64,000 nt of DNA, taken from Bacteroidota bacterium (GTDB taxonomy: Bacteria > Bacteroidota > Bacteroidia > Bacteroidales > UBA7960). The stretch spans positions 16,046-80,045 of the forward strand of contig JAGXRQ010000095.1 of assembly GCA_018335675.1 (NCBI GenBank), written 5' to 3'. Every line of letters starts with the position of its first letter. The stretch's first letter is position 1. The notes beneath the pieces are model-generated. The model worked only from the letters and a program-made list of their open reading frames with translations, searched no databases and was not told the origin of the DNA. Below, piece after piece: positions 21,364 to 39,330 of the stretch. The position numbers and the translations under genes were made by a program.

Positions 21364-24006
21364 ATGAAAACACAAAAAAGCTCTATTTGGCTTGCTACTA
21401 TTCTTATTAGCATTTTTACATTTTCAAACACTTTTTCATCAAATTTAGAACCCCAAAAACTTACTGCTCCGAAAGATTTTTTCGGGTTTAATCCCGGCGC
21501 TGATAAAAAGCTTATAAGTTATGAGGAGCTTATTAATTATTTGTTTTTGCTGGAAAAGGAGTCACCAATGCTAAAAATGCATCATGCCGGCAACTCTCCA
21601 ATGGGCAAACCAATGTATATAACGTTCATTTCTGCTGCTGAAAACATTAATAATCTCAATAAATTACAGGAAATCAATCGTGAACTTGCATTAAACCCTA
21701 ATATCAGCGAAAATGAAAAAGCTAAAATGATTGAAGATGGGAACGTTTTCGTAATGGCAACTCTGTCAATGCATTCCAACGAGGTTGGCCCGTCTCAGGC
21801 TGCTCCTATAATGGCTTATGAACTTTTATTTGAAAGACAAGAAGAAGTTAAGGATTATCTCGAAAATGTAGTTTTGATGCTTATTCCTTGCCATAATCCT
21901 GATGGAATGGATATGACTGTAGAGCATTACAGAAAATATGTTGGAACTCCTTACGAAGGAAGTACCCTTCCGGGTGTTTATCATAAATATGTAGGGCATA
22001 ATAACAACAGGGACTTTGTTGCACTAACACAAGAAGACACAAAAGTAATTGCTGACATTTATAATATTCAATGGTATCCTCAGGTTTTTGTTGAAAAACA
22101 TCAGATGGGAATCACCGATCCTAGATATTTTGTTCCGCCTGCTCACGACCCTATTGCAGAAAATATAGATGAAGGAATCTGGAACTGGAATTGGGTATTT
22201 GGCTCAAATATGTCTAAATATATGACAAACAAAGGATTAACCGGAATAACCCAGCATTATCTCTTCGATGACTATTGGCCTGGATCTACTCAAACTTGTG
22301 CTTGGAAAAATGTTATTGGCATGCTAACAGAAGCTGCTAGTGTGCAATTGGCAACTCCTGTTTATGTTGAAAAAAGTGAAATGAGAGTTATTGGAAAAGG
22401 CCTTTCTGAATACAAGAAAAGTATTAACATGCCAATTCCGTGGCAAGGTGGATGGTGGAAATTGTCTGATATTGTAAGGTATGAAGTAGAATCTATTTTT
22501 TCTATGCTAAAAACATCATCACTATACAGAAAAGAAATATTAACATTTAGAAATGATTTATGTGTAAAAGAAGTAAATAAGGGCTATAATGAATCTCCCT
22601 ATTTCTACATTATACCTAAACAACAACACGATTATAGTGAAACACTAAACATGCTTATATTACTTGAAAGACACGGAATTAATATATATCAGCTTAAAGA
22701 AGACGCAGTTGTACAAGGAAGAAAATACTATGAGGGAGACTACATAATACCTCTATCACAGGCATACCGGCCATTTATCAAAGAAGTAATGGAGAAACAA
22801 GAATTCCCGGTAAGAAGATATACCCCTGGAGGCGAAATGATTAGACCATACGACATAACAAGTTGGTCGCTTCCGCTGCACAGAGGCATTGAAAGTCACG
22901 AAATTACACAACCTCAGCAATGGCTATACGAAAAATTTGTTCCAGTTAATATTACTGAAAAAACAAAAGAATCACCCAAACTACCATTTGGCTTTTTAGT
23001 TTATTGCGCAACTAATAACGACTCCTATAAAATTGCATTTCAGGCACTTGCAAAAAATATTGATGTTTTTAGAACAACTGATAATGCAACTATTAATGGA
23101 ACTTTCATTCCTTCAGGTAGTTTCATCATAGAAAAAACCAATAAAAATTCGAATCAAATTGAAATGATATCTGCATCGGCAAAGATTTATCCGATATCAT
23201 TCAAACAAAAACCTGAAATAAAAACAAATAAACTTGCACTTCCAAAAATTGCAATAACAGAATCATACTTTCATGATATGGATGCAGGATGGACAAGATT
23301 TTTGTTTGATCAATACGGAATACCTTTCACTGTTATAAGACCGTGCGAATTTGCAGGTAAAAATTTGATAAAACAATTTGATGTAATAATCTTTCCTGAC
23401 CAAAATAAAAATGCATTAATGCAGGGAAGATGGCAACGTGGTGAAAATGTTGTTATTCCTTTTTATCATCCAGACTTTGCAAAAGGAATGGAAAAAGCCG
23501 GATGGCAAGAAGTTTTAGAATTTATTGAGCAAGGAGGTATAGTAATTTCATGGGCACAGAGTACAGAATTATTTTTAGGACTTATGGAGCCCAAGACCGG
23601 CCAACCATATAACTTTCCTATTAGCAACATTGCGCAATCACTACAAGATCAAGGGTTTAAATGTCCGGGGTCATTACTTTCAGTTACTTTAAACACCAAG
23701 CACCCTATTAGCTGGGGTATGCCTGAGAAATTCGGCGTATTTCACAGGGAAAATAACGTATTTGCAACATCTATCCCAATTTTTGATATGGACAGAAGAG
23801 CAATTGCAACATTTACCGAAAAGCCTGAAATACTTAGCGGATATGCAGAAAAGATAGAATTGCTTGAAAACCAGCCTGCAGTAGTATGGCTTAAAAAAGG
23901 GAAAGGACAAGTAGTTTTGTTTTCATTTGCCCCAAATTTCAGAGGATCAACCCCTGTTACTAATAAATTGATTTTCAATTCAATACTGCTAATTCACTCA
24001 TTCTAA
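21364..24006 (+). CDS. M14-family zinc carboxypeptidase-like protein (large, secreted)
   Basis: 880 aa with a signal peptide. Contains HSNE (HxxE zinc site), HNPDG, NNNRDF and a downstream His (EKHQMG). Confidence 0.75.
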   Translation: MKTQKSSIWLATILISIFTFSNTFSSNLEPQKLTAPKDFFGFNPGADKKLISYEELINYLFLLEKESPMLKMHHAGNSPMGKPMYITFISAAENINNLNKLQEINRELALNPNISENEKAKMIEDGNVFVMATLSMHSNEVGPSQAAPIMAYELLFERQEEVKDYLENVVLMLIPCHNPDGMDMTVEHYRKYVGTPYEGSTLPGVYHKYVGHNNNRDFVALTQEDTKVIADIYNIQWYPQVFVEKHQMGITDPRYFVPPAHDPIAENIDEGIWNWNWVFGSNMSKYMTNKGLTGITQHYLFDDYWPGSTQTCAWKNVIGMLTEAASVQLATPVYVEKSEMRVIGKGLSEYKKSINMPIPWQGGWWKLSDIVRYEVESIFSMLKTSSLYRKEILTFRNDLCVKEVNKGYNESPYFYIIPKQQHDYSETLNMLILLERHGINIYQLKEDAVVQGRKYYEGDYIIPLSQAYRPFIKEVMEKQEFPVRRYTPGGEMIRPYDITSWSLPLHRGIESHEITQPQQWLYEKFVPVNITEKTKESPKLPFGFLVYCATNNDSYKIAFQALAKNIDVFRTTDNATINGTFIPSGSFIIEKTNKNSNQIEMISASAKIYPISFKQKPEIKTNKLALPKIAITESYFHDMDAGWTRFLFDQYGIPFTVIRPCEFAGKNLIKQFDVIIFPDQNKNALMQGRWQRGENVVIPFYHPDFAKGMEKAGWQEVLEFIEQGGIVISWAQSTELFLGLMEPKTGQPYNFPISNIAQSLQDQGFKCPGSLLSVTLNTKHPISWGMPEKFGVFHRENNVFATSIPIFDMDRRAIATFTEKPEILSGYAEKIELLENQPAVVWLKKGKGQVVLFSFAPNFRGSTPVTNKLIFNSILLIHSF

Positions 24007-27058: not shown

Positions 27059-27285
27059 ATTTGGATACTACTTCATTTGCATCATAAAGTTATAATTATT
27101 TGTAAAACAAATAGGCAATCATATTAAAATTAAGCAATAAATGACACAAAATTATTTTAGCTATTGGTAATTGACTTGGCTTAAACCGGCATGATCATAT
27201 GTGAATCAATTAAATATAAGTTTTTTTTCTTGGTAATAATATTTCTTTTTCGTAACTTGCTATGATTTTTATACACCATATGCCT

Positions 27286-30200
27286 ATGAATAAGAAAATC
27301 TACTTCATCACAGTTTTTGCACTAATTTTCTTTCTGCTTTTGTCAGAATATTCTTTTTCTCAACAATCAGAGGAAGGCTTTGGCATTTCTATTTCTGCTG
27401 ATAAAGTTTTTGACGACAGCGATTTAAGGGAAAGCCCCTCAAGAATACTAATTTGGGAAAATGATTTAATCAAATCGAATACCGGAGAGTATTTTTTTAT
27501 TACCAAAACTCCTATTGCTTATACATCGTTTGGTATTGGTTGGAAAGCGGACAGTGACAAATCTCCTGCCGGTCATTTTACGGTAAAATTCAGAGTAAGG
27601 CAAGAAAATGGAGAATGGTCTGATTATTATGAAGATGAGGCATATGTGCATCCTTCGGAAACACCTACCGAATTATATTTTACTAATTTGCTGTTCCCTC
27701 CCACCGAAGAAGCATATCACTACATAGAGTTTTCTATTTTAGCACCTGAAAAAGTTCATTTGCAAATGGTTAGGATGGATATTATTGATATAAGAGGAAC
27801 GGGAAAACCAGGACCTGCACCTGGAGATGAAAAAGCATATTACGAATCAGAAAAAAGCTGTCCGCCATTTCCTGCAATTATCACAAGAGCAGATTGGTGC
27901 GGTGGTTATACAGCATGTCATAACCCCACATATACACCAACATACATAAGTGCAACACATACTGTTTTGCATCATGGGGCATCTCCAGACACATACACTG
28001 ATGGACACGCAGTTGTAAGATCATATTGGAACTATCATGTTAATACATTAAAATGGGCAGACATAGGCTACAATTACCTTTTTGACAAATATGGAAACTT
28101 TTTTCAAGGCAGATTTAATCCAAATCTTCCAAATAGTGACGTAAGAGGCGCGCATGCCGGGAATTCAAATGGAGCATCAATAGGATTAAATTATCTAGGA
28201 AATTCTGATGTAACATTGCCAACAACTGCACAACTTAATAAAACTTATGAGTTTCTTGCATGGTGGTACGACAGAAAAGGATTCGACCCGACTTCATCAG
28301 CCACAATCGCGTTACAGAGCGGCGGGAGTGGCAGTGTTCCAAGAATATGCGGTCATAAAGATGTAAATATTGGCGGAACAGCTTGTCCGGGAAATGCCGC
28401 ATATGCGCAATTATCAAGCATCAGAACAAACACTAAATCCATTATCGATAACTGCAATAATAATGTTCCCACAAACTTGCAAAGAACATTACACGGATGC
28501 CCCAATAATCAGGTTACATTCAATTGGACAAATTCAGGAACAGGCTGGTATATTCAGGTTTCTACAGCATCAAACTATTCAAACCCATATTGGAAATGGG
28601 TGTCAGGACTTACTTCATATTTAGCACCTGGAGAGTTTGTTCTTCAATCTGACGGTGTTACTAATCTGGTTTTTCAGGAAGGAACAACATACTATTGGAG
28701 AATACACAATGGAAGTTCATTCACTAATGGACCGAGTTTCTCAATCCCCTATTGCAGCACAAACCCGCCAACCACATCCATTTCCGTAAGTTATGAGGGT
28801 GATTGGGTTACTGAAAACTTTACGGCTACTTTCAATGATGTTGCAAATCAAAGCGTTATTGCCAGAAGATTCTATCAAGTACTTGAGTATGATGGAACAT
28901 ACTGGGGCGCTAATCCAAATCGAGGCTTTTTTGGAGACAATTTTGAAACTTTAAACACATCATTGTGGACCACAGTTTCGGGAACATGGTCAGTATCTGG
29001 CAATCAGCTTAGACAAACAGATGCAAGCGTCAACAACACAAACATTTATGCTCCTCTTAATCAAATGCTTTCAAATAGATATATGTATCAATTTGTGGCA
29101 AAGGTTGAAGGCAGTGGAACAACCAGAAGATTCGGACTTCACTTTTTCTGCGACAATGCAAGCCTTAGCGAAAGAGGTAATTCATATTTTGTATTCTTTA
29201 GAGTGGACGACCAAAGCCTTCAGTTTTACAAAGTAACCAATAATACATTCTCTCTTGTAAAAACAATTAGTAATGTTACAACAACAGTTGGTCAGTGGTA
29301 TGATATTAAAGTAATTTATGATAGAATCACTGGGGAAATAATCGTTTATAGAGATGATGTTTTTTTAGGTTCCTGGACCGACTCATCGCCATATAGCACA
29401 AACGGAAATCATATCTCTTTCCGCACAGACAACAGTCAGCTATACATTAATGAAATCAAAGTATACAGGACAAGATTACCTGAAGCAACAATTTCAGTTG
29501 GTGCAGACAACTCTAATGATTTAAGAACGCAAAGTCCAAATCCAACAACTGCAGGCGGAAAGATTAAATCTATTGTAACTGACAACCTTGGAAATCTTTC
29601 TCAAATAGCTTATTATGATTTAAAAATTGACAGAACACCTCCCACAAATATTTCCTATGTATATGATGGTATTGGAAGTGATATTAGCCAAACGAATTCA
29701 ACTACGCAATTATCTGCCAATTGGGCTAATTCCTCAGATGTAAACTCAGGTATTAAAAAGTATTGGTATGCAATAGGTACATCCGCAGGAAATACAAATA
29801 TTGTAGGATGGACAGATAATGGGACTAACACTTCAGTTACTCACACCGGATTAACCTTAACCAACGGAACTACCTATTATTTTTCAGTGCGTTCAGAAAA
29901 TGGGGCCGGATTATTAAGTACAGTTGCCTCTTCTAACGGACAAACTGTAGTTGTGGGACCAACCAATTTGCAGCATACACTGCACGGTTGTCCGAATAAT
30001 AACGTAACATTTAGTTGGACAAACTCAGGCTCTGGATGGTATATACAAGTTTCTAAATTCTCAAATTTCTCCTCTCCTTATTGGAAGTGGGTTTCAGGAC
30101 TCACATCTTATACCGGACCGGCTGGATTTGTTCTTCAATCTGATGGAGTTACTCCTTTGCAATTTGAGGATGCAACTACTTATTACTGGAGGATTTATGG

Positions 30201-31710
30201 CAATGGAGCTTTCACGTCTTCTTTAAACTTTACAACTCCAACTTGTAATTGTACCCAAATTTCTGACTTCCCGTATTTCCAAAATTTCAACAACGGTGAA
30301 GGTCAATGTTGGTCTGTAGAGTCGGTTTCTGAAACTACCTGGACACCATTAACCGGATTTACTATTGGAGAAACTATCAATGTTAATCCTGTTAGCGGAT
30401 CGCACTTGTATAGGTGCCAATGGACTGCAACGGAAAATCAGAACGAATGGTTGATATCGCCTGTGTTTAATTTCACAAACCTAAGCTCTCCGGAAATAAG
30501 TTTCAAGTTTACAGGAAGTTATCATTGGTCGGTCATTAATCCGAATTGCGATTTGGATCTTATGATAAGAATAAATGCAGGAAGTTGGAATAAATTGTGG
30601 AATAACAAAGATCATTCAAATTTTACATCTAATGACATCAACTGGACATGGCTAAATGAGGTTGTTTCACTTAGCAGCTATGCAGGGCAAAACAACGTGC
30701 AACTTGCATTCAGATATACCGGATTCGACGGAGCTGCATTCGCTCTGGATGAGATAAAAGTTTCTAATATGACTATTCCGGGAGATGTAAACAACGATGG
30801 AAGTATTAATGTATTGGATATTGTTTGGCTTGTAAATCATCTAAATGGCTCTACTCCAACAGGTTTTAATTTTTCAGCAGCCGATGTAAATAATGATGGT
30901 TTAATTAATATTGCAGACCTTACAAATCTGATAAACATCATATTCAATGGTGCAAAGTTGAATGAAAATAAAGTTGATTCTGAACAACCACATCTTTATC
31001 TTGACGAAGATGGCCTTATAAGGTTTATCAGTGATGGGACAATTTTAGCTATACATTTTCAGCTCATTTGTGATGAATTGCAGAATATGGAAGTTGATCT
31101 TTTACTTCAAACAGGACACACTTTCGTATTCAACAATGTTACAGGATATGGATTATTGTACAGTATGAGCGGAAGTTTAATTCCCGAAGGTGAAATTGAC
31201 TTATTTCAAATAAGCGGAGTGGACTTTTCCGGTGTAAGTTGGGGAATGGCTCAGGCATCTAACCTGAATCATCAAGCAGTTGACATTATTACTCATTCAT
31301 TTTTCGACCCGGACGATGGTGATGAACCTGATGACGACGATGATGGTGATGACGGAGACGATGATGACGACGGAAATGATGACGGTGATGATGACGGCAG
31401 TGAAACATTCATTTCAGACAATTATGAAATAATAAGCGAAATACTCGTATATCCAAACCCAAGTACTGGTAATTTTTCAGTCTCTTTTAAAACAAATGAA
31501 GCTATTGTTGTTGAAATTATTATTTATGACGAAATCGGTAGAAGCATATACAGAAAAGAAGCCACTTTTAATCCCGGATATCATAGTATCAAATTCTCTA
31601 AGAATGACATACATTTCGGCAATAAGGCTATAATTCTCGTGAACATTTTTGATATTTTCAAATCTAACATACTAGGAAATTATCAAAGAATAGTTATTTT
31701 CGCAAATTGA
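27286..31710 (+). CDS. giant T9SS-secreted peptidoglycan amidase (PGRP/Amidase_2), with LamG-like, FN3, MAM-like (choice-of-anchor-J-like), dockerin-like, unassigned module, poly-Asp linker and T9SS CTD
   Basis: Signal peptide MNKKIYFITVF... (start moved to 27286). The amidase_2 core spans ~27877-28405 (HTVLHHGAS, WADIGYNYLFDKYGNFFQGR, GAHAGNSNGASIG, ICGHKDV..TACPG). Dockerin-like GDVNNDGSINVLD...ADVNNDGLINIADL at ~30781-30950. T9SS CTD (VYPNPSTGNFSVSF...) at ~31444-31707. Confidence 0.85.
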   Translation: MNKKIYFITVFALIFFLLLSEYSFSQQSEEGFGISISADKVFDDSDLRESPSRILIWENDLIKSNTGEYFFITKTPIAYTSFGIGWKADSDKSPAGHFTVKFRVRQENGEWSDYYEDEAYVHPSETPTELYFTNLLFPPTEEAYHYIEFSILAPEKVHLQMVRMDIIDIRGTGKPGPAPGDEKAYYESEKSCPPFPAIITRADWCGGYTACHNPTYTPTYISATHTVLHHGASPDTYTDGHAVVRSYWNYHVNTLKWADIGYNYLFDKYGNFFQGRFNPNLPNSDVRGAHAGNSNGASIGLNYLGNSDVTLPTTAQLNKTYEFLAWWYDRKGFDPTSSATIALQSGGSGSVPRICGHKDVNIGGTACPGNAAYAQLSSIRTNTKSIIDNCNNNVPTNLQRTLHGCPNNQVTFNWTNSGTGWYIQVSTASNYSNPYWKWVSGLTSYLAPGEFVLQSDGVTNLVFQEGTTYYWRIHNGSSFTNGPSFSIPYCSTNPPTTSISVSYEGDWVTENFTATFNDVANQSVIARRFYQVLEYDGTYWGANPNRGFFGDNFETLNTSLWTTVSGTWSVSGNQLRQTDASVNNTNIYAPLNQMLSNRYMYQFVAKVEGSGTTRRFGLHFFCDNASLSERGNSYFVFFRVDDQSLQFYKVTNNTFSLVKTISNVTTTVGQWYDIKVIYDRITGEIIVYRDDVFLGSWTDSSPYSTNGNHISFRTDNSQLYINEIKVYRTRLPEATISVGADNSNDLRTQSPNPTTAGGKIKSIVTDNLGNLSQIAYYDLKIDRTPPTNISYVYDGIGSDISQTNSTTQLSANWANSSDVNSGIKKYWYAIGTSAGNTNIVGWTDNGTNTSVTHTGLTLTNGTTYYFSVRSENGAGLLSTVASSNGQTVVVGPTNLQHTLHGCPNNNVTFSWTNSGSGWYIQVSKFSNFSSPYWKWVSGLTSYTGPAGFVLQSDGVTPLQFEDATTYYWRIYGNGAFTSSLNFTTPTCNCTQISDFPYFQNFNNGEGQCWSVESVSETTWTPLTGFTIGETINVNPVSGSHLYRCQWTATENQNEWLISPVFNFTNLSSPEISFKFTGSYHWSVINPNCDLDLMIRINAGSWNKLWNNKDHSNFTSNDINWTWLNEVVSLSSYAGQNNVQLAFRYTGFDGAAFALDEIKVSNMTIPGDVNNDGSINVLDIVWLVNHLNGSTPTGFNFSAADVNNDGLINIADLTNLINIIFNGAKLNENKVDSEQPHLYLDEDGLIRFISDGTILAIHFQLICDELQNMEVDLLLQTGHTFVFNNVTGYGLLYSMSGSLIPEGEIDLFQISGVDFSGVSWGMAQASNLNHQAVDIITHSFFDPDDGDEPDDDDDGDDGDDDDDGNDDGDDDGSETFISDNYEIISEILVYPNPSTGNFSVSFKTNEAIVVEIIIYDEIGRSIYRKEATFNPGYHSIKFSKNDIHFGNKAIILVNIFDIFKSNILGNYQRIVIFAN

Positions 31711-31785
31711 TTAATTATTAAAGATAAACTCGACCAAAATTATTAATTATTTCAAACCATTTAGTATTAACCAAAACCAAACAGA

Positions 31786-34700
31786 ATGAAAAAATTATTT
31801 TTACTTATTGTAGCGGCAATTTTTCTAAACACTTTAGTTATTGCCCAAATCAGTCAACCCGGCTCACCAAAAAGTTTTGAATATCTCAAAACAGGTGATG
31901 AGTTGTCTCAAGTTAAATTTGCTTTAATGCCATTTATAGATATTGAGGCATTGAAAGCAGAGGATTTAGAAATTGATGAATTAAAAGACAGACCTTGGAG
32001 GTTTGGACAAGTGCATCAGGTTTCATTAAACCCTAATAATTCAGGAACATGGGACATACTTGGAAACGGCACGAAAATATGGAGACTTGGGATAAATTGC
32101 GAGGGTGCGCTTTCTATCAACATATTGTTTGATATGTACAAGCTTCCTGCAGGAGCTCAGTTATTCGTATATTCTGCAGACAGAAAAGAGATATTAGGCG
32201 CTTTTACCAATATTAACAATCAGGAAGACAACCTATTTCCTGTGTCTTTCATTTTTTCAGATAATGTCATTGTAGAATATAATGAACCAAAAGGTGTTGA
32301 GTTTGAAGGAAAGTTGAGTATTTCTGAAGTTACACATGGATATAGAACACTTGCCGATTATGTAAAAGCTTTTGGTCAAGCAGGATCCTGCAATGTAAAC
32401 GTAGCTTGTCCTCAAGGAGCAGCATGGGGAAATCAAATAAATTCAGTGCTTATGCTAGCATCATCTAATGGTGTGAGTAATGGATTCTGTTCAGGAGCAC
32501 TTATAAATAATACAAATAACGATGGCACCCCTTATTTTTTATCAGCAAACCATTGCTATTCAGCTCCCGGTTCAGTTTTTTATATCTTCAACTGGCAAAG
32601 TGCAACCTGCTCTAATCCAGGCAGTTCACCTTCATTCCAATCAGTAGCAGGAGCTACAGACAGAGCAAGAAATGCTGCTTCCGATTTTTGGCTAGTACAA
32701 TTAAATACGACTCCCCCTCAAAGCTACAATCCTTATTATTCTGGTTGGAACAGAACAACTGATGCCACTATGTCCGGTACTATATGGGGTATTCACCACC
32801 CAAGAGGAGACATTAAAAAAATAAGTTGGGCAACTGGCGGTGCAACTACTTCTAATTATTTAGGTGCGACTGGTAGTGGAACTACACATTGGAGAGTTGG
32901 CTCTTGGAGCGATGGCACAACTACTGAAGGTGGTTCATCAGGCTCTCCACTATTTGACCCACAAGGAAGAATAATGGGACAGTTACATGGAGGATATGCT
33001 GCTTGCGGAAATACTGACCCTGACTGGTACGGAAAACTTGGAGTTTCATGGACAGGTGGCGGCACAAATGCAACACGCTTAAGCAACTGGCTGGATCCAT
33101 CTAGTACTGGCGTAGTTGTTATTGATGGATATGATCCATTTGGTATTACATATACTACAGATGCTCAGATGCAGAGCATTACACATCCGGTTGCAAGTTA
33201 TAATTCGTTGGAAACTATAACTCCTACTGTTGTTGTAAGAAATAATGGAACTGCTAATATTACAACAGGAACTGTTAGCTATACTCTAAACGGCGGAACT
33301 GCAATTACAACTAGCTTAGGTGCACTTGCAAGCGGTGCAACTACAAATATTACATTCCCAGCAATCACACTTACTGCCGGCAACCAGGTATTTGTAGCTA
33401 CTGTTACTGTTGCCGGTGACGAAAATCCTGGAAACAATTCATTAACTAGAAACTTTTCTGTAGTTGATTGCGGCACTCCTGTTTCATTACCATTTAATCA
33501 AGGATTTAATAGCGGATCTATCCCAAGCTGTTGGACTCAAGAATATGTATCTGCTCATAATCACAACTGGCAATTTGGTGCCGGAAACGGTGGCAGCAAC
33601 CCTGCATCTGCTTTTGAGGGTAGTGGTAATGCTTATTTTAAAATTACTGGCACACCAAGAGGAAGAACCACAAAACTTGTTACTCCAAAACTGGGTCTGG
33701 CAGATTTTGCTGATGTAGTATTAAGCTTCCGTTTATATAACCAGTTTTGGAGTCCTGACCAAGATGTTTTACGAGTATATTACAAAAATTCATCTGCAGG
33801 TTCATGGGTGCTTCTTAATACATATAATACAAGTGTAACTGCTTGGACTCCAATAACAATAAATATTCCTAATGGTGTATTAACCAACGACTTCTATATT
33901 GCATTTGAAGGTGAAGCTAACTGGGGTTATGGCGTTTGTATCGATGCTGTCAGTATTACAGGAGAAGCTGCTTCAGGCGTATTAAATCCAACAGCATTTA
34001 CTGGTACAGGAGTAAGTGAATCTCAAATAAATTTGGGTTGGACTAAAAATGCATCTAATAATAACGTAATGGTAGCTGTAAACACTACTAATACATTTGG
34101 TACTCCAAGTGGCGCTTACACTGTTGGACAAGCAATCGCCGGAGGTGGAACTATTATTTACAGAGCTGATGGAACTTCATTCAACCACACTAGTCTTAAC
34201 CCTTCAACAACCTATTATTATAAAGCGTGGTCGTATAATGGAACTAATCAGTATTCTTCTGGAGTTACTGCTAATGCGACAACACAGTGCGGAATTATCA
34301 ACACATTCCCTTATAATCAAAACTTTGATGGTGGATCGGGGTTATGCTGGACAGTTCAATCTAACTCCACAACTACTTGGGCACCAATAACAACTTTTAC
34401 AATTGGAGGCACTACAATAATTAATCCGGTTAGTGGATCTCATTTTTACAGATGTAACTGGCATGGTACTGACAGTCAAAATGAATGGCTATTAACGCCG
34501 ACCTTTAACTTCACTGGCGTTAATCCACAAATGAAGTTTTGGTTTAATGGAAGTTATTACTGGTCGGTAGCTGATTATGACAACTGCGATTTAGACGTAA
34601 TGGTCAGAGTAAATGGTGGCGCATGGACCAAGATATGGGGAGAAACAGACCATCCTAATTTTACATCAACCGATGTAAACTGGGTATGGCTTGAAACTAC

Positions 34701-35661
34701 TTTAAGCCTATCTGCATATGCAGGCCAAAGTAATGTGCAATTTGCATTCAGATATACGGGAACTGATGGAGCTGCTTTCTCAGTAGATAATATAACAATT
34801 GAACACGCGGGTGGTATACTTGGCGATGTAAACGGCGACGGATTTGTTAATGTTGGGGATGTTGTTTGGATTGTTAGTCATTTGAATGGCAGCACTCCTG
34901 GAGGCTTCATTATGGCAAATGCTGACGTTAATGGAGACGGCTCTGTTAATCTTGCCGACCTTACTGCAATGATAAATATTATTCTGGGCTTAAAAATAGA
35001 ATCTTCTTCAATAAATTCTTTGCCGGGAGATATTTATATTAATGAAAATGGTAAGATTACATTTAAAAGTGATGGAAGTATTACTGCCTTGCAGTTTGTA
35101 ATTTCAGGTGACAATATGCAGGATGCAAGCATAACTGAAATCATAGACAATTTTACTATTTCTGTGATAAACGATGGCAACTCATTACATGGAATAATAT
35201 ACAATATGGAACTTGACACTTTCAATAATACTGAAATTGAATTATTCAGCATCCATAATGTAGATTTATTTAATCTGACATGGGAAATGGCTGTTGCGGC
35301 AAATACTGAACATGAATTAGTTACGGTAAACACTCACGACCTGAATTCACCTGTAACTGATGGCAACATAACTTCGGATGTATTCTCTGCAAAAGTATTT
35401 CCTAATCCAAGTACCGGAATATTCAATATCAAACTTAATATTCCGGATCAGTCATTTATCAATATTCGTATAATTGACGAAAAAGGAAGAGTTGTTTATT
35501 CAAAACAAAACATAGAATATAATCAAGGAATGCATATTATTTCATTCGATCAGTTGAACACTAAGATGAGTGGAGTTTATTTCTTGCAAGTTACAGGTTT
35601 TGATTCTGCAAAGCAAAATACTATTTTCAAACATGAAGAACGTATTATAATTGCGAGATAA
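31786..35661 (+). CDS. giant T9SS-secreted S1 serine endopeptidase (lysyl-endopeptidase-like), with CARDB-like, MAM-like, FN3, MAM-like, dockerin-like, unassigned module and T9SS CTD
   Basis: Signal peptide present. Catalytic triad context: CSGALINN..PYFLSANHC (His), SDFWLVQL (Asp) and EGGSSGSPLFD (Ser). Dockerin-like GDVNGDGFVNVGD...ADVNGDGSVNLADL at ~34822-34990. CTD VFPNPSTGIFNIKL at ~35395-35658. Confidence 0.85.
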   Translation: MKKLFLLIVAAIFLNTLVIAQISQPGSPKSFEYLKTGDELSQVKFALMPFIDIEALKAEDLEIDELKDRPWRFGQVHQVSLNPNNSGTWDILGNGTKIWRLGINCEGALSINILFDMYKLPAGAQLFVYSADRKEILGAFTNINNQEDNLFPVSFIFSDNVIVEYNEPKGVEFEGKLSISEVTHGYRTLADYVKAFGQAGSCNVNVACPQGAAWGNQINSVLMLASSNGVSNGFCSGALINNTNNDGTPYFLSANHCYSAPGSVFYIFNWQSATCSNPGSSPSFQSVAGATDRARNAASDFWLVQLNTTPPQSYNPYYSGWNRTTDATMSGTIWGIHHPRGDIKKISWATGGATTSNYLGATGSGTTHWRVGSWSDGTTTEGGSSGSPLFDPQGRIMGQLHGGYAACGNTDPDWYGKLGVSWTGGGTNATRLSNWLDPSSTGVVVIDGYDPFGITYTTDAQMQSITHPVASYNSLETITPTVVVRNNGTANITTGTVSYTLNGGTAITTSLGALASGATTNITFPAITLTAGNQVFVATVTVAGDENPGNNSLTRNFSVVDCGTPVSLPFNQGFNSGSIPSCWTQEYVSAHNHNWQFGAGNGGSNPASAFEGSGNAYFKITGTPRGRTTKLVTPKLGLADFADVVLSFRLYNQFWSPDQDVLRVYYKNSSAGSWVLLNTYNTSVTAWTPITINIPNGVLTNDFYIAFEGEANWGYGVCIDAVSITGEAASGVLNPTAFTGTGVSESQINLGWTKNASNNNVMVAVNTTNTFGTPSGAYTVGQAIAGGGTIIYRADGTSFNHTSLNPSTTYYYKAWSYNGTNQYSSGVTANATTQCGIINTFPYNQNFDGGSGLCWTVQSNSTTTWAPITTFTIGGTTIINPVSGSHFYRCNWHGTDSQNEWLLTPTFNFTGVNPQMKFWFNGSYYWSVADYDNCDLDVMVRVNGGAWTKIWGETDHPNFTSTDVNWVWLETTLSLSAYAGQSNVQFAFRYTGTDGAAFSVDNITIEHAGGILGDVNGDGFVNVGDVVWIVSHLNGSTPGGFIMANADVNGDGSVNLADLTAMINIILGLKIESSSINSLPGDIYINENGKITFKSDGSITALQFVISGDNMQDASITEIIDNFTISVINDGNSLHGIIYNMELDTFNNTEIELFSIHNVDLFNLTWEMAVAANTEHELVTVNTHDLNSPVTDGNITSDVFSAKVFPNPSTGIFNIKLNIPDQSFINIRIIDEKGRVVYSKQNIEYNQGMHIISFDQLNTKMSGVYFLQVTGFDSAKQNTIFKHEERIIIAR

Positions 35662-35847: not shown

Positions 35848-38800
35848 ATGAAGAATCTAATTAGAACCTTTACATCTATTGCAATTATTATTGCTTTCAG
35901 CTTTAATGCAAAAAGCCAGAATATTAAAATTGACACTTCAGAATTATCTTATGCAAAAGAATTAAACTCTGATCAAATTAGAGCAATTGAAGAACAACAG
36001 CAACTCGAAAAAACTTACCAAGTTGTTCGTGGTGAGAGACCACCGATTAATATAGAAGAAGTTAAAGAAGAAGCTTTCGAAAAAGGCAGAATAGCAATCA
36101 AAATTCAGCCATATTTAGCAGAAAAATTAGCAGAAAAGTTTATTTACCCTGATAAAACCGGTTTTGTTAAAACAGGAGTAAAGAATCTAGATTACTTGAA
36201 TGAAGTTTTAAATGTTAAAGCATACAATCCTCTGTTTATCAATATCTATAACACAACAGAGAAAACAATTTTGAACAGAGAAAAGCATAAAGCTTGGGGA
36301 TTTCATTTATGGTTCGAGATTGAATTAGACGAAAAAACCGACATTAAACAAGTCGTAAAATTATTTTCAGAATTGCCGGAAATTGCAATTGCAGAACCTT
36401 TTTATAAGAAAGAATTGCTTGGTATTAGTGAAAGGGACAATAATGAAATTACTAGAGATAAATGGACTCCTAACGACCCACAACTTGGCAATCAGTGGCA
36501 TTATAACAATACAGGACAACAAGGCGGAACTGCCGGATGTGATATTAGTTTGTTTTCAGCTTGGAATATTGAGAAAGGACATACTTCAGTTATTGTAAGT
36601 ATTCAAGACGGTGGAATTCAGATCGACCATGTTGATTTGGCGGCAAATATGTGGTCAGGAATTGGATATAACTTCGTTAACAATTCTCCAACAATTACAG
36701 TTCACAATCATGGAGTTCACGTTGCAGGAACTGTTGCTGCGGTGAATAATAACAACATTGGTGTTGCCGGAGTTGCCGGAGGTTCGGGCTCAGGCGATGG
36801 CATCAGACTAATGTCAAGTCAGGTTTTTACAACCACAGGTTCGGGAGGATTTCACCTCGCTCCTATTCATGCAGCCGACAATGGAGCCGCTATTTCGCAA
36901 AACAGTTGGGGTTACACAAGTGCAAATGTATTTGAACAAAATGTATTAGATGCTATTGACTATTTCAATGCAAATGGTGGTGGTTTGGTATTAAATGGTG
37001 GAATAACCATTTTTGCAGCCGGAAACAGCAATGCAACAGGAAACTGGTACCCGGGATGTTACTCAGGCACTTTTGCAATTGCAGCAACAAACAATCAGGA
37101 TGTGAAATCATGGTATTCAAACTATGGTGCTTGGATAGACATTTCAGCCCCGGGAGGAGAAACGAATACTGTTACTCAAAGAGGAGTATTAAGCTCAATA
37201 TCAACAAACAGCTACGCTTATTATCAAGGAACTTCAATGGCTTGCCCTCACGCATCAGGTGTAGCAGCACTTATTGTTTCATACGCACATAGAAATGGAA
37301 TAATGCTAGACAATATTGATATTGCAGATATTCTAAGAAACTCTACTGATAATCATTATGGTGTAAATGCCGGGTTTGTTGGAAATCTTGGAACAGGCAG
37401 ACTTAATGCATTTAAAGCGCTTCAGGAAACTCAAAGCTATATATCTGGTGTATTAAATCCTAAAAACATTACTGCTGTGGCTAATAGCACAAGTGAAATT
37501 AATATTAGCTGGACAAAAAATGATAATGCAAACGATGTTATGCTCGTTTGGTCTGCTGATGGAACATTTGGAACACCAAATGAGGGTTCATCATACAGCA
37601 TTGGAAATACTATTCCGGGCGGAGGTATTGTTTTATATAGAGGTGCTGCAACAACATTCAACCATGTAGGCCTTGCTGCCGCTACAAAATATTATTACAG
37701 AGTTTTTTCTTATAATGCTTCAAATGAGTATTCCTCTGGAAGAGGAACAAGCACAGCTACTTGGTGCGATATATTAACAAGCTTACCAGTATTAGAAAAC
37801 TTTAATACATCAAGCACCTTACCTATTTGCTGGGAAATTATTGATAACCAAGGAAATGGACAGGTTTGGCAAATTGGAACTCACACAAGTGGACTTAGTG
37901 GAACAGGCGGTAATTACGCATTTCTAAACAGCGATGGGTATGGTTCAGGAAGTTCTCAAAACTCTGACCTTGTTACTCCTATAATGGATTTATCAGCATA
38001 TACTAATGTAAGACTTGAATTCAAACATTATTTCAGAGAGTATACGGGTTCATCAGGAAAACTTTTTTATTCAATAAACGGCGGTGCATCATGGGTTCAA
38101 ATTCAGCAATGGTCAGTAACAACAGCAAATCCTGTATCTTTTAGCCAGGTAATTTCCGCAGTTGAAGGCCAAGCTGCTGTTAGATTTAAGTGGAATTATA
38201 CAGGAAGTTGGGGTTATTATTGGGATATTGATGATATTGCAATTACTGGTGATGTTTCTACAGGTGTTGCTAACCCTAACTCTTTTACGGCAACTCCGGC
38301 AAATAGTACACAAATAAATCTTGCATGGAATAAAAACACCGACAATAACAATGTTATGATTGCTGTGAATACATCTAATACTTTTGGCACTCCATCAGGA
38401 AACTATAGTGCAGGGCAACCCATTTCCGGAGGTGGAACAGTTATTTATAACTCAAGTGGAACTTCATTTAATCATTCCGGTTTAAATCCATCAACGACAT
38501 ATTATTATAAGGCCTGGTCGTATAATAGTGAAACAATATACTCCGGTGGGGTTACAGCACAAGCAAACACTCTTTGTGGAACCATAAGCACATTGCCATT
38601 CACAGAGGGATTTGAAGCTGCTGGTATTCCATCTTGCTGGACTCAAGAATATGTTTCAACACATAATTTAAATTGGTCTTTTGGAGCCGGAAATGGAGGC
38701 TCAAATCCATCAACCGCTTTCCAAGGAAGCAGAAATGCGTATATAAAAATTAATGGAACTCCGAGAGGGCAATCCACTAAACTAATAACACCACCTCTAA

Positions 38801-39270
38801 ATTTATCTTCATATACTGATGTGCAGTTAACATTTTACTATTTTAATCAGTTTTGGAGTCCGGATCAGGATGTCTTGAGAGTTTATTATAAAAACTCTGC
38901 ATCTGGTTCCTGGGTGCTATTAAACACTTATAATGCAAACGTCAATTCCTGGACTTCTGTTACTATAAATATTCCAAATGGTGTATTAAGCAATGATTTT
39001 TACATTGCTTTTGAAGGAGAAGCAAACTGGGGATATGGTGTTTGTATTGACGCCGTTACAATTAATGGTGTTAGTTCATTAGTTATTGCTGGTGATGTAA
39101 ACGGCGACGGATTTGTAAACGTTGGCGATATTGTTTGGATGGTTAGCCACCTGAATGGAAGCACACCTGCAGGATTTATTATGGCAAATGCTGACGTAAA
39201 TCTAAATGGAAGTGTGAATATTGCAGATTTATCTGCACTTATTAATCTGATTTTGAATGTTATAAAATAA
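35848..39270 (+). CDS. secreted S8 subtilisin-family protease, with FN3, MAM-like, FN3, MAM-like and a terminal dockerin-like module (no T9SS CTD)
   Basis: Signal peptide present. S8 motifs are IQDGGI (Asp), HGVHVAGTVAA (His), AAGNS (Asn) and GTSMACPHASGVAAL (Ser). The protein ends ...GDVNGDGFVNVGD..ADVNLNGSVNIADLSALINLILNVIK*, and the terminator follows within ~25 nt. Confidence 0.85.
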   Translation: MKNLIRTFTSIAIIIAFSFNAKSQNIKIDTSELSYAKELNSDQIRAIEEQQQLEKTYQVVRGERPPINIEEVKEEAFEKGRIAIKIQPYLAEKLAEKFIYPDKTGFVKTGVKNLDYLNEVLNVKAYNPLFINIYNTTEKTILNREKHKAWGFHLWFEIELDEKTDIKQVVKLFSELPEIAIAEPFYKKELLGISERDNNEITRDKWTPNDPQLGNQWHYNNTGQQGGTAGCDISLFSAWNIEKGHTSVIVSIQDGGIQIDHVDLAANMWSGIGYNFVNNSPTITVHNHGVHVAGTVAAVNNNNIGVAGVAGGSGSGDGIRLMSSQVFTTTGSGGFHLAPIHAADNGAAISQNSWGYTSANVFEQNVLDAIDYFNANGGGLVLNGGITIFAAGNSNATGNWYPGCYSGTFAIAATNNQDVKSWYSNYGAWIDISAPGGETNTVTQRGVLSSISTNSYAYYQGTSMACPHASGVAALIVSYAHRNGIMLDNIDIADILRNSTDNHYGVNAGFVGNLGTGRLNAFKALQETQSYISGVLNPKNITAVANSTSEINISWTKNDNANDVMLVWSADGTFGTPNEGSSYSIGNTIPGGGIVLYRGAATTFNHVGLAAATKYYYRVFSYNASNEYSSGRGTSTATWCDILTSLPVLENFNTSSTLPICWEIIDNQGNGQVWQIGTHTSGLSGTGGNYAFLNSDGYGSGSSQNSDLVTPIMDLSAYTNVRLEFKHYFREYTGSSGKLFYSINGGASWVQIQQWSVTTANPVSFSQVISAVEGQAAVRFKWNYTGSWGYYWDIDDIAITGDVSTGVANPNSFTATPANSTQINLAWNKNTDNNNVMIAVNTSNTFGTPSGNYSAGQPISGGGTVIYNSSGTSFNHSGLNPSTTYYYKAWSYNSETIYSGGVTAQANTLCGTISTLPFTEGFEAAGIPSCWTQEYVSTHNLNWSFGAGNGGSNPSTAFQGSRNAYIKINGTPRGQSTKLITPPLNLSSYTDVQLTFYYFNQFWSPDQDVLRVYYKNSASGSWVLLNTYNANVNSWTSVTINIPNGVLSNDFYIAFEGEANWGYGVCIDAVTINGVSSLVIAGDVNGDGFVNVGDIVWMVSHLNGSTPAGFIMANADVNLNGSVNIADLSALINLILNVIK

Positions 39271-39295
39271 CGTTTCTTGTCAAAATAAAGTAAAA

Positions 39296-39330
39296 GGCTG
39301 TCTCAGATAATTTTGAGGCAGCTTTTTTTT
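39296..39330. terminator. terminator hairpin between convergent genes
   Basis: GGCTGTCTC...GAGGCAGC(C) stem followed by a T8 run. It overlaps the stop codon of the minus-strand aminotransferase gene. Confidence 0.55.

What the first reader, a model, noticed from the sequence alone, without database searches (positions are those of the whole stretch)
30991..35341. Unassigned beta-rich module between dockerin and T9SS anchor in two proteins, while the third ends at its dockerin
In the amidase (30991-31300) and the S1 protease (35029-35341), the dockerin is followed by a mutually alignable ~105-aa module. One reads HLYLDEDGLIRFISDGTILAIHFQLICDELQ...IDLFQISGVDFSGVSWGMAQASN. The other reads DIYINENGKITFKSDGSITALQFVISGDNMQ...IELFSIHNVDLFNLTWEMAVAAN. 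This module precedes the T9SS C-terminal sorting domain that normally tethers cargo to the cell surface. The subtilisin (35848-39270) has a Sec signal and a terminal dockerin, but neither this module nor a CTD. Its stop codon is followed directly by a terminator, so this is not an obvious frameshift artefact. My hypothesis is that the unassigned module is a cohesin-like receptor. The CTD-less subtilisin would then be exported or displayed by docking onto its anchored neighbours, giving a minimal surface multi-enzyme complex. The cohesin resemblance is only pattern recognition (alternating hydrophobic beta-strand periodicity, an A-x-QF-x-I motif) and has low confidence.
Basis: inference. Interest (0 to 1): 0.62.

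Follow-up and report, generated by a model that had tools for sequence, protein, structure and literature searches.

The report
Miniature cohesin behind dockerin, T9SS enzymes
The unassigned module is a previously unrecognised, shrunken version of the cohesin "socket" that sits right behind a dockerin "plug" and in front of the type IX secretion anchor in surface enzymes of a Bacteroidales bacterium, and it probably clasps that plug; binding has not been measured.

Summary
Two neighbouring T9SS cargo enzymes (a PGRP-type amidase and an S1 protease) carry dockerin, then a ~113-aa module, then a CTD. The third enzyme (an S8 subtilase) stops at its dockerin, ahead of a strong terminator.

The module is a compact cohesin:
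- An AF2 model (pLDDT 96) has nine strands, and its top ten PDB fold matches are all cohesins.
- Its profile hits genuine cohesins (E 3.6e-6 over 1.84 billion proteins).
- It aligns profile-to-profile with a longer Bacteroidales cohesin family (95% probability).
- Pfam, NCBIfam and PDB sequence searches miss it.

In 120 of 138 representatives it lies in the same cassette, Doc, ~8 aa, module, ~12 aa, T9SS CTD. AF2 predicts the Doc-module tandem as one rigid unit (pTM 0.90). Dockerin helix 3 co-varies in a size-compensating way with module strands 8, 3 and 6, which belong to the classical binding face. One genome splits the pair into two secreted proteins.

My reading is a self-complementary cohesin-dockerin pair, like R. 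bromii Amy4, that may also accept the near-identical dockerins of six CTD-less enzymes. Display of the subtilisin on its neighbours is untested, and two long-cohesin, CTD-anchored stalk proteins elsewhere in the genome compete for that role.

The parts
27262..31710 (+). ORF1, 1482 aa: signal peptide, PGRP-type (amidase_2) domain, accessory beta-rich domains, then the Doc / compact cohesin / acidic linker / T9SS CTD tail
30772..30957 (+). Type I dockerin of ORF1 (aa ~1171-1232)
   Evidence: Pfam Dockerin_1 48.6 bits; in-house dockerin HMM E 8e-35
30976..31314 (+). Compact cohesin module of ORF1 (aa ~1239-1351)
   Evidence: family-level evidence
31315..31431 (+). Asp/Gly-rich acidic linker between the module and the CTD; present in ORF1 only
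   Evidence: translation; gap in the ORF1/ORF2 alignment
31432..31707 (+). T9SS type A C-terminal sorting domain of ORF1, divergent
   Evidence: Pfam 22 bits and TIGR04183 20.5 bits, both below their cut-offs; aligns with the ORF2 CTD; in-house CTD HMM E 1.5e-46, but this sequence is one of the HMM's two seeds
31786..35661 (+). ORF2, 1291 aa: signal peptide, S1 trypsin-like protease, CARDB, MAM-like domains, then the Doc / compact cohesin / CTD tail
34813..34992 (+). Type I dockerin of ORF2 (aa ~1010-1069)
   Evidence: Pfam 53.4 bits; in the tandem model it superposes on CaDoc0917, target-normalised TM 0.9, rmsd 0.8-1.0 A, 42-44% identity
35014..35355 (+). Compact cohesin module of ORF2 (aa ~1077-1190); this is the sequence that was modelled
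   Evidence: AF2 pLDDT 96, pTM 0.87, nine strands; Foldseek top ten hits all cohesins
35380..35658 (+). T9SS type A CTD of ORF2
   Evidence: Pfam PF18962 35.6 bits, TIGR04183 37 bits, both above their cut-offs
35848..39270 (+). ORF3, 1140 aa: signal peptide, S8 subtilase with N-terminal propeptide-like domain, fn3/MAM-like domains, ending in a dockerin; no module and no CTD
39088..39255 (+). Terminal type I dockerin of ORF3; same type as the other 11 dockerins of the genome
   Evidence: Pfam 43.4 bits; alignment of the 12 dockerins
39292..39330 (.). Strong hairpin with an A-run before it and a T8 run after it, between the convergent genes (intrinsic terminator)
   Evidence: -21.1 kcal/mol, z -6.4

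Best explanation
The module is a miniaturised cohesin: about 105-113 aa and nine strands, lacking the ~14-aa insert after strand 3 and the longer ends of ordinary cohesins. It forms a conserved three-part C-terminal cassette: type I dockerin, ~8-aa linker, compact cohesin, ~12-aa linker, T9SS type A CTD.

I propose that the compact cohesin binds the dockerin type that precedes it. The contact would be the classical one, with dockerin helix 3 lying on the strand 8-3-6 face. The pair is therefore self-complementary. It closes either as an intramolecular clasp or as head-to-tail links between copies, as shown experimentally for R. bromii Amy4.

After T9SS export and CTD removal by PorU, this pair would be the membrane-proximal part of the LPS-anchored enzyme. 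All 12 dockerins of the genome are of one type. The same sockets could therefore also accept the dockerins of the six CTD-less enzymes (S8 subtilase, M14 carboxypeptidase, PAD-type deiminase, endonuclease I and two others), in competition with the cassette's own dockerin.

Shown here: the fold, the homology, the conserved cassette, the split/fused pair, and the presence of PorU. Inferred: the binding itself, cis versus trans, and the surface location.
For: Fold: the AF2 model has pLDDT 96, pTM 0.87 and nine strands. Its ten best PDB matches are all cohesins, E down to 3e-5 and query-normalised TM (TMq) up to 0.69.

Homology: a seven-sequence module profile hits P0121 at E 3.6e-6 over 1.84e9 proteins. 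P0121 has two Pfam Cohesin domains (E 4e-34), and the module aligns inside both. hhalign of the module family against a long Bacteroidales cohesin family gives 95.4% probability, E 1.9e-8, over 87 columns. That long family hits the P0121 cohesins at E 4e-27.

Cassette: of 138 module-bearing representatives, 125 have a dockerin directly upstream (median linker 8 aa), 129 have a CTD directly downstream, and 120 have both.

Pairing:
- The Doc-module tandem is modelled as one unit, pLDDT 95.2 and pTM 0.90, with the linker block at ~80.
- Its two halves match CaDoc0917 and cohesins including its partner CaCohA2.
- The top inter-domain covarying pair is dockerin helix-3 residue 54 with strand-8 residue 166: corrected mutual information (MIp) 0.30, null maximum 0.20, rank 6 overall.
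- The pairings compensate in size: I-G 37, V-A 22, T-S/A 18. Pairs 54/95 (strand 3) and 60/130 (strand 6) behave likewise.

Split pair: on contig C79 a Doc-terminated enzyme is followed by a separate ORF of signal peptide plus module. Its 60%-identical orthologue P0013 has the two fused.

Free sockets exist: P0001 is signal peptide, two modules and a CTD, with no dockerin.

PorU sortase is present, 1258 bits.

Precedent: the Amy4 cohesin binds its own dockerin and those of Amy9 and Amy10 (PMC4611034).
Against: - No binding has been measured, and I could not inspect the model's coordinates. The geometry of the predicted Doc-module contact is inferred only from covariation.
- The covariation null breaks phylogeny. 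About 100 effective sequences is few, and several other top inter-domain pairs look like clade markers.
- The Pfam Cohesin model does not hit any of 48 modules, even at E<=10.
- The paralogous modules are much more divergent (mean 34% identity) than the dockerins (mean 61%). That is unexpected if all of them bind one dockerin type, unless only a small surface patch matters.
- The free module on C79 has no CTD, so anchoring cannot be its role there.
Confidence: 0.58

Rival explanations
1. One reading: the module is mainly a trans receptor. The CTD-less, dockerin-terminated enzymes (the subtilase here) dock onto the modules of their CTD-anchored neighbours, forming a minimal surface multi-enzyme complex and possibly gaining their route to the surface.
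For: The genome splits evenly: six Doc-module-CTD proteins and six proteins that end at the dockerin, all with Sec signal peptides and none with a lipobox. The subtilase gene directly follows two cassette genes. All dockerins are of one type and are compatible at the covarying position (T or S at 54, A or S at 166). Doc-less SP-module-module-CTD proteins exist. The Amy4 cohesin accepts dockerins of other enzymes.
Against: Each cassette module has a dockerin tethered 8 aa away, so its own dockerin has a very high local concentration. In the related genome G289, 21 dockerins lack a compact module against 11 modules. Two free long cohesins on CTD-anchored stalk proteins are alternative receptors. 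The C79 free module has no CTD, so it cannot anchor its partner.
Confidence: 0.2
2. An XDoc-like dyad: the module is a cohesin-derived support domain that packs against the dockerin through a non-classical surface. This stabilises the dockerin and leaves its binding face free. All 12 dockerins then plug into the canonical-length N-terminal cohesins of the two CTD-anchored stalk proteins (C75, 1046 aa; C5, 4319 aa).
For: The tandem is predicted as a rigid unit. Both long-cohesin genes lie directly downstream of a cassette gene. The long domains are clear cohesins (E 4e-27 to the P0121 cohesins; Pfam Cohesin 3-139 of 139 at E 0.011). Single anchoring cohesins that serve many dockerin enzymes are described for R. 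albus (PMC6118326).
Against: The covarying, size-compensating pairs link the classical helix-3 face of the dockerin to strands 8, 3 and 6 of the module. That is the classical interface, not a side contact. Known X-modules are Ig-like and lie N-terminal to the dockerin; here the order is reversed and the fold is cohesin.
Confidence: 0.15
3. A relic spacer: a degenerate cohesin kept only as a folded beta-sandwich pedestal between the cargo and the T9SS CTD, with no dockerin binding.
For: Beta-sandwich domains commonly precede T9SS CTDs (general knowledge). The module is shortened and not recognised by Pfam. The paralogues are divergent.
Against: The module is almost never found without an adjacent dockerin (125 of 138), although CTD proteins are far more numerous than dockerin proteins. 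It persists as a separate secreted protein next to a Doc-terminated enzyme, with no CTD at all. By strand alternation, exposed positions on strand 3 (L93, G/A95, Q97, E99) are highly conserved.
Confidence: 0.1

Closest known systems
Ruminococcus bromii Amy4 (amylosome enzyme carrying both a cohesin and a dockerin; PMC4611034)
   Same: An enzyme that carries both plug and socket. Its cohesin binds its own dockerin (multimerisation) and the dockerins of cohesin-less enzymes, giving scaffold-free enzyme-enzyme complexes. The complexes are non-cellulolytic.
   Different: Amy4 is from a Gram-positive bacterium. Its cohesin is of canonical size and lies upstream of a C-terminal dockerin, and anchoring goes through a separate sortase-linked scaffoldin. 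Here the order is Doc then Coh, the cohesin is ~30% shorter, the linker is only ~8 aa, and a T9SS CTD follows. Binding is tested for Amy4 and untested here.
Clostridium perfringens cohesin-like modules and dockerins in GH84/GH33 toxins (PDB 2jh2, 2vo8, 2o4e, 2w1n)
   Same: These are the best Foldseek E-values for the module. They are non-cellulosomal cohesin-dockerin pairs that join enzymes directly to each other.
   Different: They are canonical-length cohesins in Firmicute glycosidases. Each enzyme carries either a cohesin or a dockerin, not an adjacent pair, and there is no T9SS.
Archaeoglobus fulgidus non-cellulosomal cohesin (PDB 2xdh)
   Same: It shares the highest TM-score (TMq 0.69, with 6kgd). 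PMC4611034 cites it among cohesin-dockerin pairs that presumably multimerise.
   Different: It is archaeal, of canonical length, and in an unrelated domain context.
CTD-anchored cohesin scaffoldin with Doc-terminated peptidases proposed in Ca. Stygibacter, Cloacimonadota (PMC8542988)
   Same: Dockerin-terminated S8 and C25 peptidases are combined with a cohesin protein that carries a T9SS-type CTD, giving a protease-rich, cellulosome-like surface complex. It is an in-silico proposal.
   Different: There the cohesins are Pfam-recognisable, tandemly repeated on one 3,755-aa scaffoldin. No Doc-Coh-CTD cassette within the enzymes and no compact cohesin is described.
Type II X-module-dockerin (XDoc) dyads of clostridial cellulosomes (e.g. 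PDB 2b59, 5m0y)
   Same: A beta-sandwich module rigidly packed against a dockerin.
   Different: The X module is Ig-like and N-terminal to the dockerin. Here the module is cohesin-fold and C-terminal, and covariation points to the classical cohesin face.

Membership tests
Cohesin (fold and superfamily) | Nine-stranded beta-sandwich (jelly-roll) fold matching solved cohesins | tested here: met
   AF2 model with nine strands, pLDDT 96. The Foldseek PDB top ten are all cohesins, E 3e-5 to 8e-4, TMq 0.53-0.69.
Cohesin (fold and superfamily) | Detectable sequence homology to genuine cohesins | tested here: met
   The module profile hits P0121 at E 3.6e-6 library-wide, inside its two Pfam Cohesin domains. 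hhalign against the long Bacteroidales cohesin family gives 95.4% probability.
Cohesin (Pfam PF00963 as curated) | Match to the Pfam Cohesin HMM above its gathering score (24.1 bits) | tested here: not met
   None of 48 modules matches, even at E<=10. There is also no hit in PDB sequences with the profile.
Cohesin (function) | Calcium-dependent binding of a dockerin on the strand 8-3-6-5 face | not testable with these tools
   Indirect evidence only: tandem pTM 0.90 and size-compensating covariation between helix 3 and strands 8, 3 and 6.
Type I dockerin (PF00404) | Two calcium-binding repeats with flanking helices, above the Pfam cut-off, matching solved dockerins | tested here: met
   43-53 bits against a cut-off of 22.9 in all three ORFs. 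The model superposes on CaDoc0917 at rmsd 0.8-1.0 A and 42-44% identity.
T9SS type A cargo (TIGR04183 / PF18962 CTD) | C-terminal sorting domain above the curated cut-off, and the PorU sortase in the genome | tested here: met
   ORF2 scores 37 and 35.6 bits, above the cut-offs. PorU scores 1258 bits at full length. The ORF1 CTD is below the cut-offs (20.5 and 22 bits) but aligns with that of ORF2.
X-module-dockerin (XDoc) dyad | Ig-like X module immediately N-terminal to a type II dockerin | tested here: not met
   The module is C-terminal to the dockerin and has a cohesin fold, not an Ig-like fold.
Amy4-like self-recognising Coh+Doc enzyme | Enzyme with both modules whose cohesin binds its own dockerin | tested here: inconclusive
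   The architecture is met. Self-recognition is only inferred.

The most novel reading that the evidence does not exclude
Type IX secretion by hitch-hiking. In Porphyromonas gingivalis, the counterparts of several of these enzymes are classical CTD cargo (PPAD, the M14 carboxypeptidase CPG70; from general knowledge). Here the peptidyl-arginine deiminase, the M14 carboxypeptidase, the S8 subtilase and endonuclease I have a Sec signal and a dockerin but no CTD. They would dock in the periplasm onto cohesin-bearing CTD proteins (compact-cohesin cassettes or the long-cohesin stalk proteins). They would then be carried folded through the T9SS translocon, or be captured on the surface only by this route. 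In that case the dockerin would act as a second, indirect T9SS sorting tag.
Probability: 0.12. Interest if true: 0.85.

Novelty: new variant of a known kind. Interest (0 to 1): 0.64.

Why it matters
Dockerins are common in Bacteroidota, yet matching cohesins have seemed rare. In a bovine rumen survey, Bacteroidetes supplied 8.8% of dockerins but 1.7% of cohesins (PMC6487960). Such dockerins have therefore been treated as orphans.

This work shows that at least two cohesin families invisible to Pfam exist in Bacteroidales:
- the compact one studied here, fused directly behind the dockerin;
- a canonical-length one, found at the N-termini of stalk proteins and behind dockerins in rumen species.

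Both families are tied to the T9SS anchor. That gives concrete, clonable candidates for the missing partners. It points to protease-, amidase- and nuclease-bearing cellulosome-like assemblies on Gram-negative surfaces. It also raises a testable question about how CTD-less dockerin enzymes leave the periplasm. Finally, a ~105-aa cohesin paired with its dockerin in one 180-aa unit could be a useful minimal affinity pair for protein engineering.

Tried and rejected
- Pfam, NCBIfam and PDB sequence searches on the module gave nothing useful. The one NCBIfam hit (NF052323, E 5e-6) covers the module's second half plus the CTD and was not pursued.
- The search for related loci with module-only alignments failed because no stretch was conserved enough. 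I used Doc+module instead, which mostly retrieved dockerins.
- A first jackhmmer search of the own genome with the C75 domain found no paralogue. A richer profile later found the C5 giant.
- Pfam on the rumen Doc+200-aa tails found neither a cohesin nor a CTD. In-house profiles were needed.
- hmmsearch of the long-cohesin profile against single modules was weak: 2 of 126 at E<1e-3. Only the profile-profile comparison was convincing.
- The context of the Doc-less mini-scaffoldin P0001 was uninformative: a 4.9-kb contig with housekeeping neighbours.
- Literature searches found no description of a Doc-Coh-CTD cassette and no report of T9SS piggy-back export.
- The terminator scanner missed the hairpin after ORF3. 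Direct folding showed it.
- I rejected a frameshift or truncation of ORF3 (only 58 nt to the convergent gene), an Ig-like, CARDB or X-module identity for the module (fold search), and a one-to-one receptor model (counts in G289).

Full report
**The observation**

The window holds three co-directional ORFs at 27262-31710, 31786-35661 and 35848-39270. Pfam places a type I dockerin near the C-terminus of each. It places a T9SS sorting domain at the end of the first two and a subtilase domain in the third, which ends four residues after its dockerin.

The stretch between dockerin and CTD in ORF1 and ORF2 aligns at 31% identity (E 2e-20) and matches no Pfam or NCBIfam family. ORF1 has a PGRP-type amidase domain (PDB hits to E 2.6e-14), although Pfam was silent at E<=0.001. 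Behind the ORF3 stop codon there are only 58 nt before a convergent gene. They contain a hairpin plus a T8 run with a folding energy of -21.1 kcal/mol and z -6.4.

**Genome-wide pattern**

The window lies on contig C95 of a 3.36-Mb, 150-contig assembly. An earlier scan note calls the organism an uncultured Bacteroidales bacterium, and the titles of the closest related loci agree.

The genome has 12 dockerin ORFs:
- Six carry Doc-module-CTD: the two in the window, plus C5, C75, C97 and C17.
- Six end at the dockerin: the window subtilase, plus C133, C41, C79 and two on C52.

The catalytic domains form a degradative set. They include a C25 gingipain-like peptidase, S51, S1 and S8 peptidases, an M14 carboxypeptidase, a Porphyromonas-type peptidyl-arginine deiminase, endonuclease I and the PGRP amidase. 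The Doc-terminated proteins have Sec-type signal peptides without a lipobox cysteine, read from the sequences. The PorU sortase is present at full length.

**What the module is**

A profile of the seven genomic copies was searched against 1.84 billion representative proteins and gave 147 hits.
- Of the 138 that contain the module, 125 have a dockerin directly upstream (median linker 8 aa).
- 129 have a T9SS CTD directly downstream (median 12 aa), and 120 have both.
- Most apparent exceptions are fragments that begin inside a dockerin.

The same profile hit P0121 at E 3.6e-6. P0121 is a Firmicute-type protein with SLH repeats and two Pfam Cohesin domains (E 4e-34), and the module aligns inside both cohesins.

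An AF2 model of the ORF2 module, built with a 48-sequence alignment, has pLDDT 96, pTM 0.87 and nine strands. Its ten best PDB matches are all cohesins: the C. perfringens cohesin-like modules, OlpC, CaCohA2 and the A. fulgidus cohesin, with TMq up to 0.69. Neither Pfam's Cohesin model nor a PDB sequence search sees the module, so it is an unrecognised compact subfamily.

**A second, longer hidden cohesin family**

The one weak Pfam Cohesin hit in the genome is the N-terminal domain of a 1046-aa protein encoded just downstream of the C75 cassette gene (E 0.011, covering 3-139 of 139). That protein continues with MBG, YDG and Flg_new stalk repeats and a CTD.

Loci fetched with the Doc+module query showed that many rumen and gut Bacteroidales ORFs have a 200-225-aa tail after the dockerin. 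Pfam does not recognise these tails.

A profile built from 33 such long domains, with no module and no P0121 sequence, hits the P0121 cohesins at E 4e-27. It aligns profile-to-profile with the compact module family at 95.4% probability, E 1.9e-8, over 87 columns. The compact module lacks a ~14-aa insert after strand 3.

The same profile finds a second long cohesin in this genome. It lies at the N-terminus of a 4319-aa CTD protein directly downstream of the C5 cassette gene. So the genome has seven compact cohesins and two long ones on anchored stalks.

**Does the module bind a dockerin, and which one?**

Four lines of evidence bear on this.

1. Near-obligate adjacency to a dockerin.
2. A split/fused pair. 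On C79 a Doc-terminated enzyme is followed by a separate ORF consisting of a signal peptide plus the module, with no CTD. Its 60%-identical orthologue P0013 has the dockerin and module fused.
3. AF2 models the natural Doc-module tandem of ORF2 as one unit, with pLDDT 95.2, pTM 0.90 and the linker block at ~80. The dockerin half superposes on CaDoc0917 (rmsd 0.8-1.0 A). The module half matches cohesins, including CaDoc0917's partner CaCohA2.
4. In 106 natural tandems, APC-corrected mutual information recovers known intra-domain contacts. It ranks one inter-domain pair sixth overall: dockerin helix-3 residue 54 with strand-8 residue 166 (MIp 0.30; maximum 0.20 in 30 permutations).

The pairings at that contact compensate in volume: I-G 37, V-A 22, T-S/A 18. 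They vary within the largest sequence cluster. Weaker pairs 54/95 (strand 3) and 60/130 (strand 6) behave the same way. Residue 54 is position 14 of the second dockerin repeat, which lies on the same helical face as the classical recognition positions. Strands 8, 3 and 6 belong to the classical cohesin binding sheet. Both statements rest on established knowledge of type I complexes, not on a test here.

Caveats: the null does not preserve phylogeny, the sample is small, and I could not view coordinates.

**Interpretation**

The most economical reading is a self-complementary cohesin-dockerin pair placed just before the T9SS anchor. Cis clasping and head-to-tail linking between copies cannot be told apart here.

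The tested precedent is R. bromii Amy4. Its cohesin binds its own dockerin and also those of the cohesin-less amylases Amy9 and Amy10 (PMC4611034).

All 12 dockerins of this genome are of one type. They average 61% identity between the two classes, and they have T or S (V in C52b) at position 54, against A or S at module position 166. Docking of the CTD-less enzymes onto compact modules is therefore chemically plausible. Genuinely Doc-less SP-module-module-CTD proteins also exist.

Three points weaken that idea as the main role:
- each cassette module has its own dockerin tethered 8 aa away;
- the two long cohesins on stalks are free alternative receptors;
- in a same-family genome, all 11 modules sit behind a dockerin while 21 further dockerins have no compact module.

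The C79 free module lacks a CTD. That shows the module's role does not require being part of an anchor.

**Distribution and novelty**

The compact module is patchy. It occurs in 12 of 301 sampled genomes of the order and 10 of 209 genera, and it is expanded only here (7 copies) and in one relative (11 copies).

Published work notes Bacteroidetes dockerins with few cohesins (PMC6487960). It also proposes, in silico, a CTD-anchored cohesin scaffoldin with Doc-terminated peptidases in Cloacimonadota (PMC8542988). I found no description of a Doc-cohesin-CTD cassette or of a compact cohesin, and none of T9SS piggy-back export.

Other agents of this scan have flagged cohesin-dockerin loci tied to the T9SS in many Bacteroidales genomes. 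Those notes are unchecked but agree with the broader picture derived here.

I class the finding as a new variant of a known kind. How the six CTD-less dockerin enzymes leave the periplasm remains unexplained. The boldest reading that the data allow is hitch-hiking through the T9SS on cohesin-bearing CTD proteins.

Noticed in passing
G000 contig C79 ~22980-23390 (+), outside the window: A stand-alone 131-aa ORF (signal peptide plus compact cohesin, no CTD, two conserved Cys) lies about 40 nt downstream of a 1179-aa Doc-terminated PKD-domain protein. The orthologue P0013 has the two fused.
   Followed up: yes
G000 contig C75 21194-24355 (-) and contig C5 19078-32034 (+), outside the window: Two paralogous T9SS cargo proteins (1046 and 4319 aa) have a canonical-length N-terminal cohesin on a long MBG/YDG/Flg_new repeat stalk. 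Each is encoded directly downstream of a Doc-module-CTD gene. They are candidate anchoring scaffoldins.
   Followed up: partly
Loci L019, L020, L021, L045, L049, L071, L083, L086 (rumen and gut Bacteroidales MAGs): There is a Pfam-invisible family of canonical-length cohesins (motif xAMQxDLxLPxGL). It occurs as Doc-Coh-CTD-like tails, as small SP-Coh-Doc proteins of 213-222 aa (L019, L021), and as a 3xCoh-Doc-Coh-tail protein in a Phocaeicola MAG (L071). Their C-terminal ~80 aa is not recognised as a CTD by Pfam either.
   Followed up: partly
window 31305-31401: There is an Asp/Gly-rich acidic linker (about 33 residues, mostly Asp) between the module and the CTD of ORF1 only. Its function is unknown; calcium buffering next to the dockerin is one idea.
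   Followed up: no
L018 467-4051 (+), Prevotella sp. MAG RGIG5089: A 1195-aa protein with a degenerate dockerin-like stretch and a compact-module-like domain (E 7e-10), but no recognisable CTD. It lies directly upstream of a 2041-aa protein with an N-terminal long cohesin and a terminal dockerin, which is followed by another protein with an N-terminal cohesin.
   Followed up: no
G000 contigs C133 and C52 (outside the window): A Porphyromonas-type peptidyl-arginine deiminase and an M14 carboxypeptidase end in dockerins instead of T9SS CTDs. Their P. gingivalis counterparts (PPAD, CPG70) are classical CTD cargo (from general knowledge).
   Followed up: partly
P0132 (828 aa, representative library): A protein with two N-terminal compact-cohesin-like domains, then a dockerin, a third module-like stretch and a CTD. 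Its Cys-rich repeats suggest a lineage outside Bacteroidales, so the compact cohesin may not be confined to that order.
   Followed up: no
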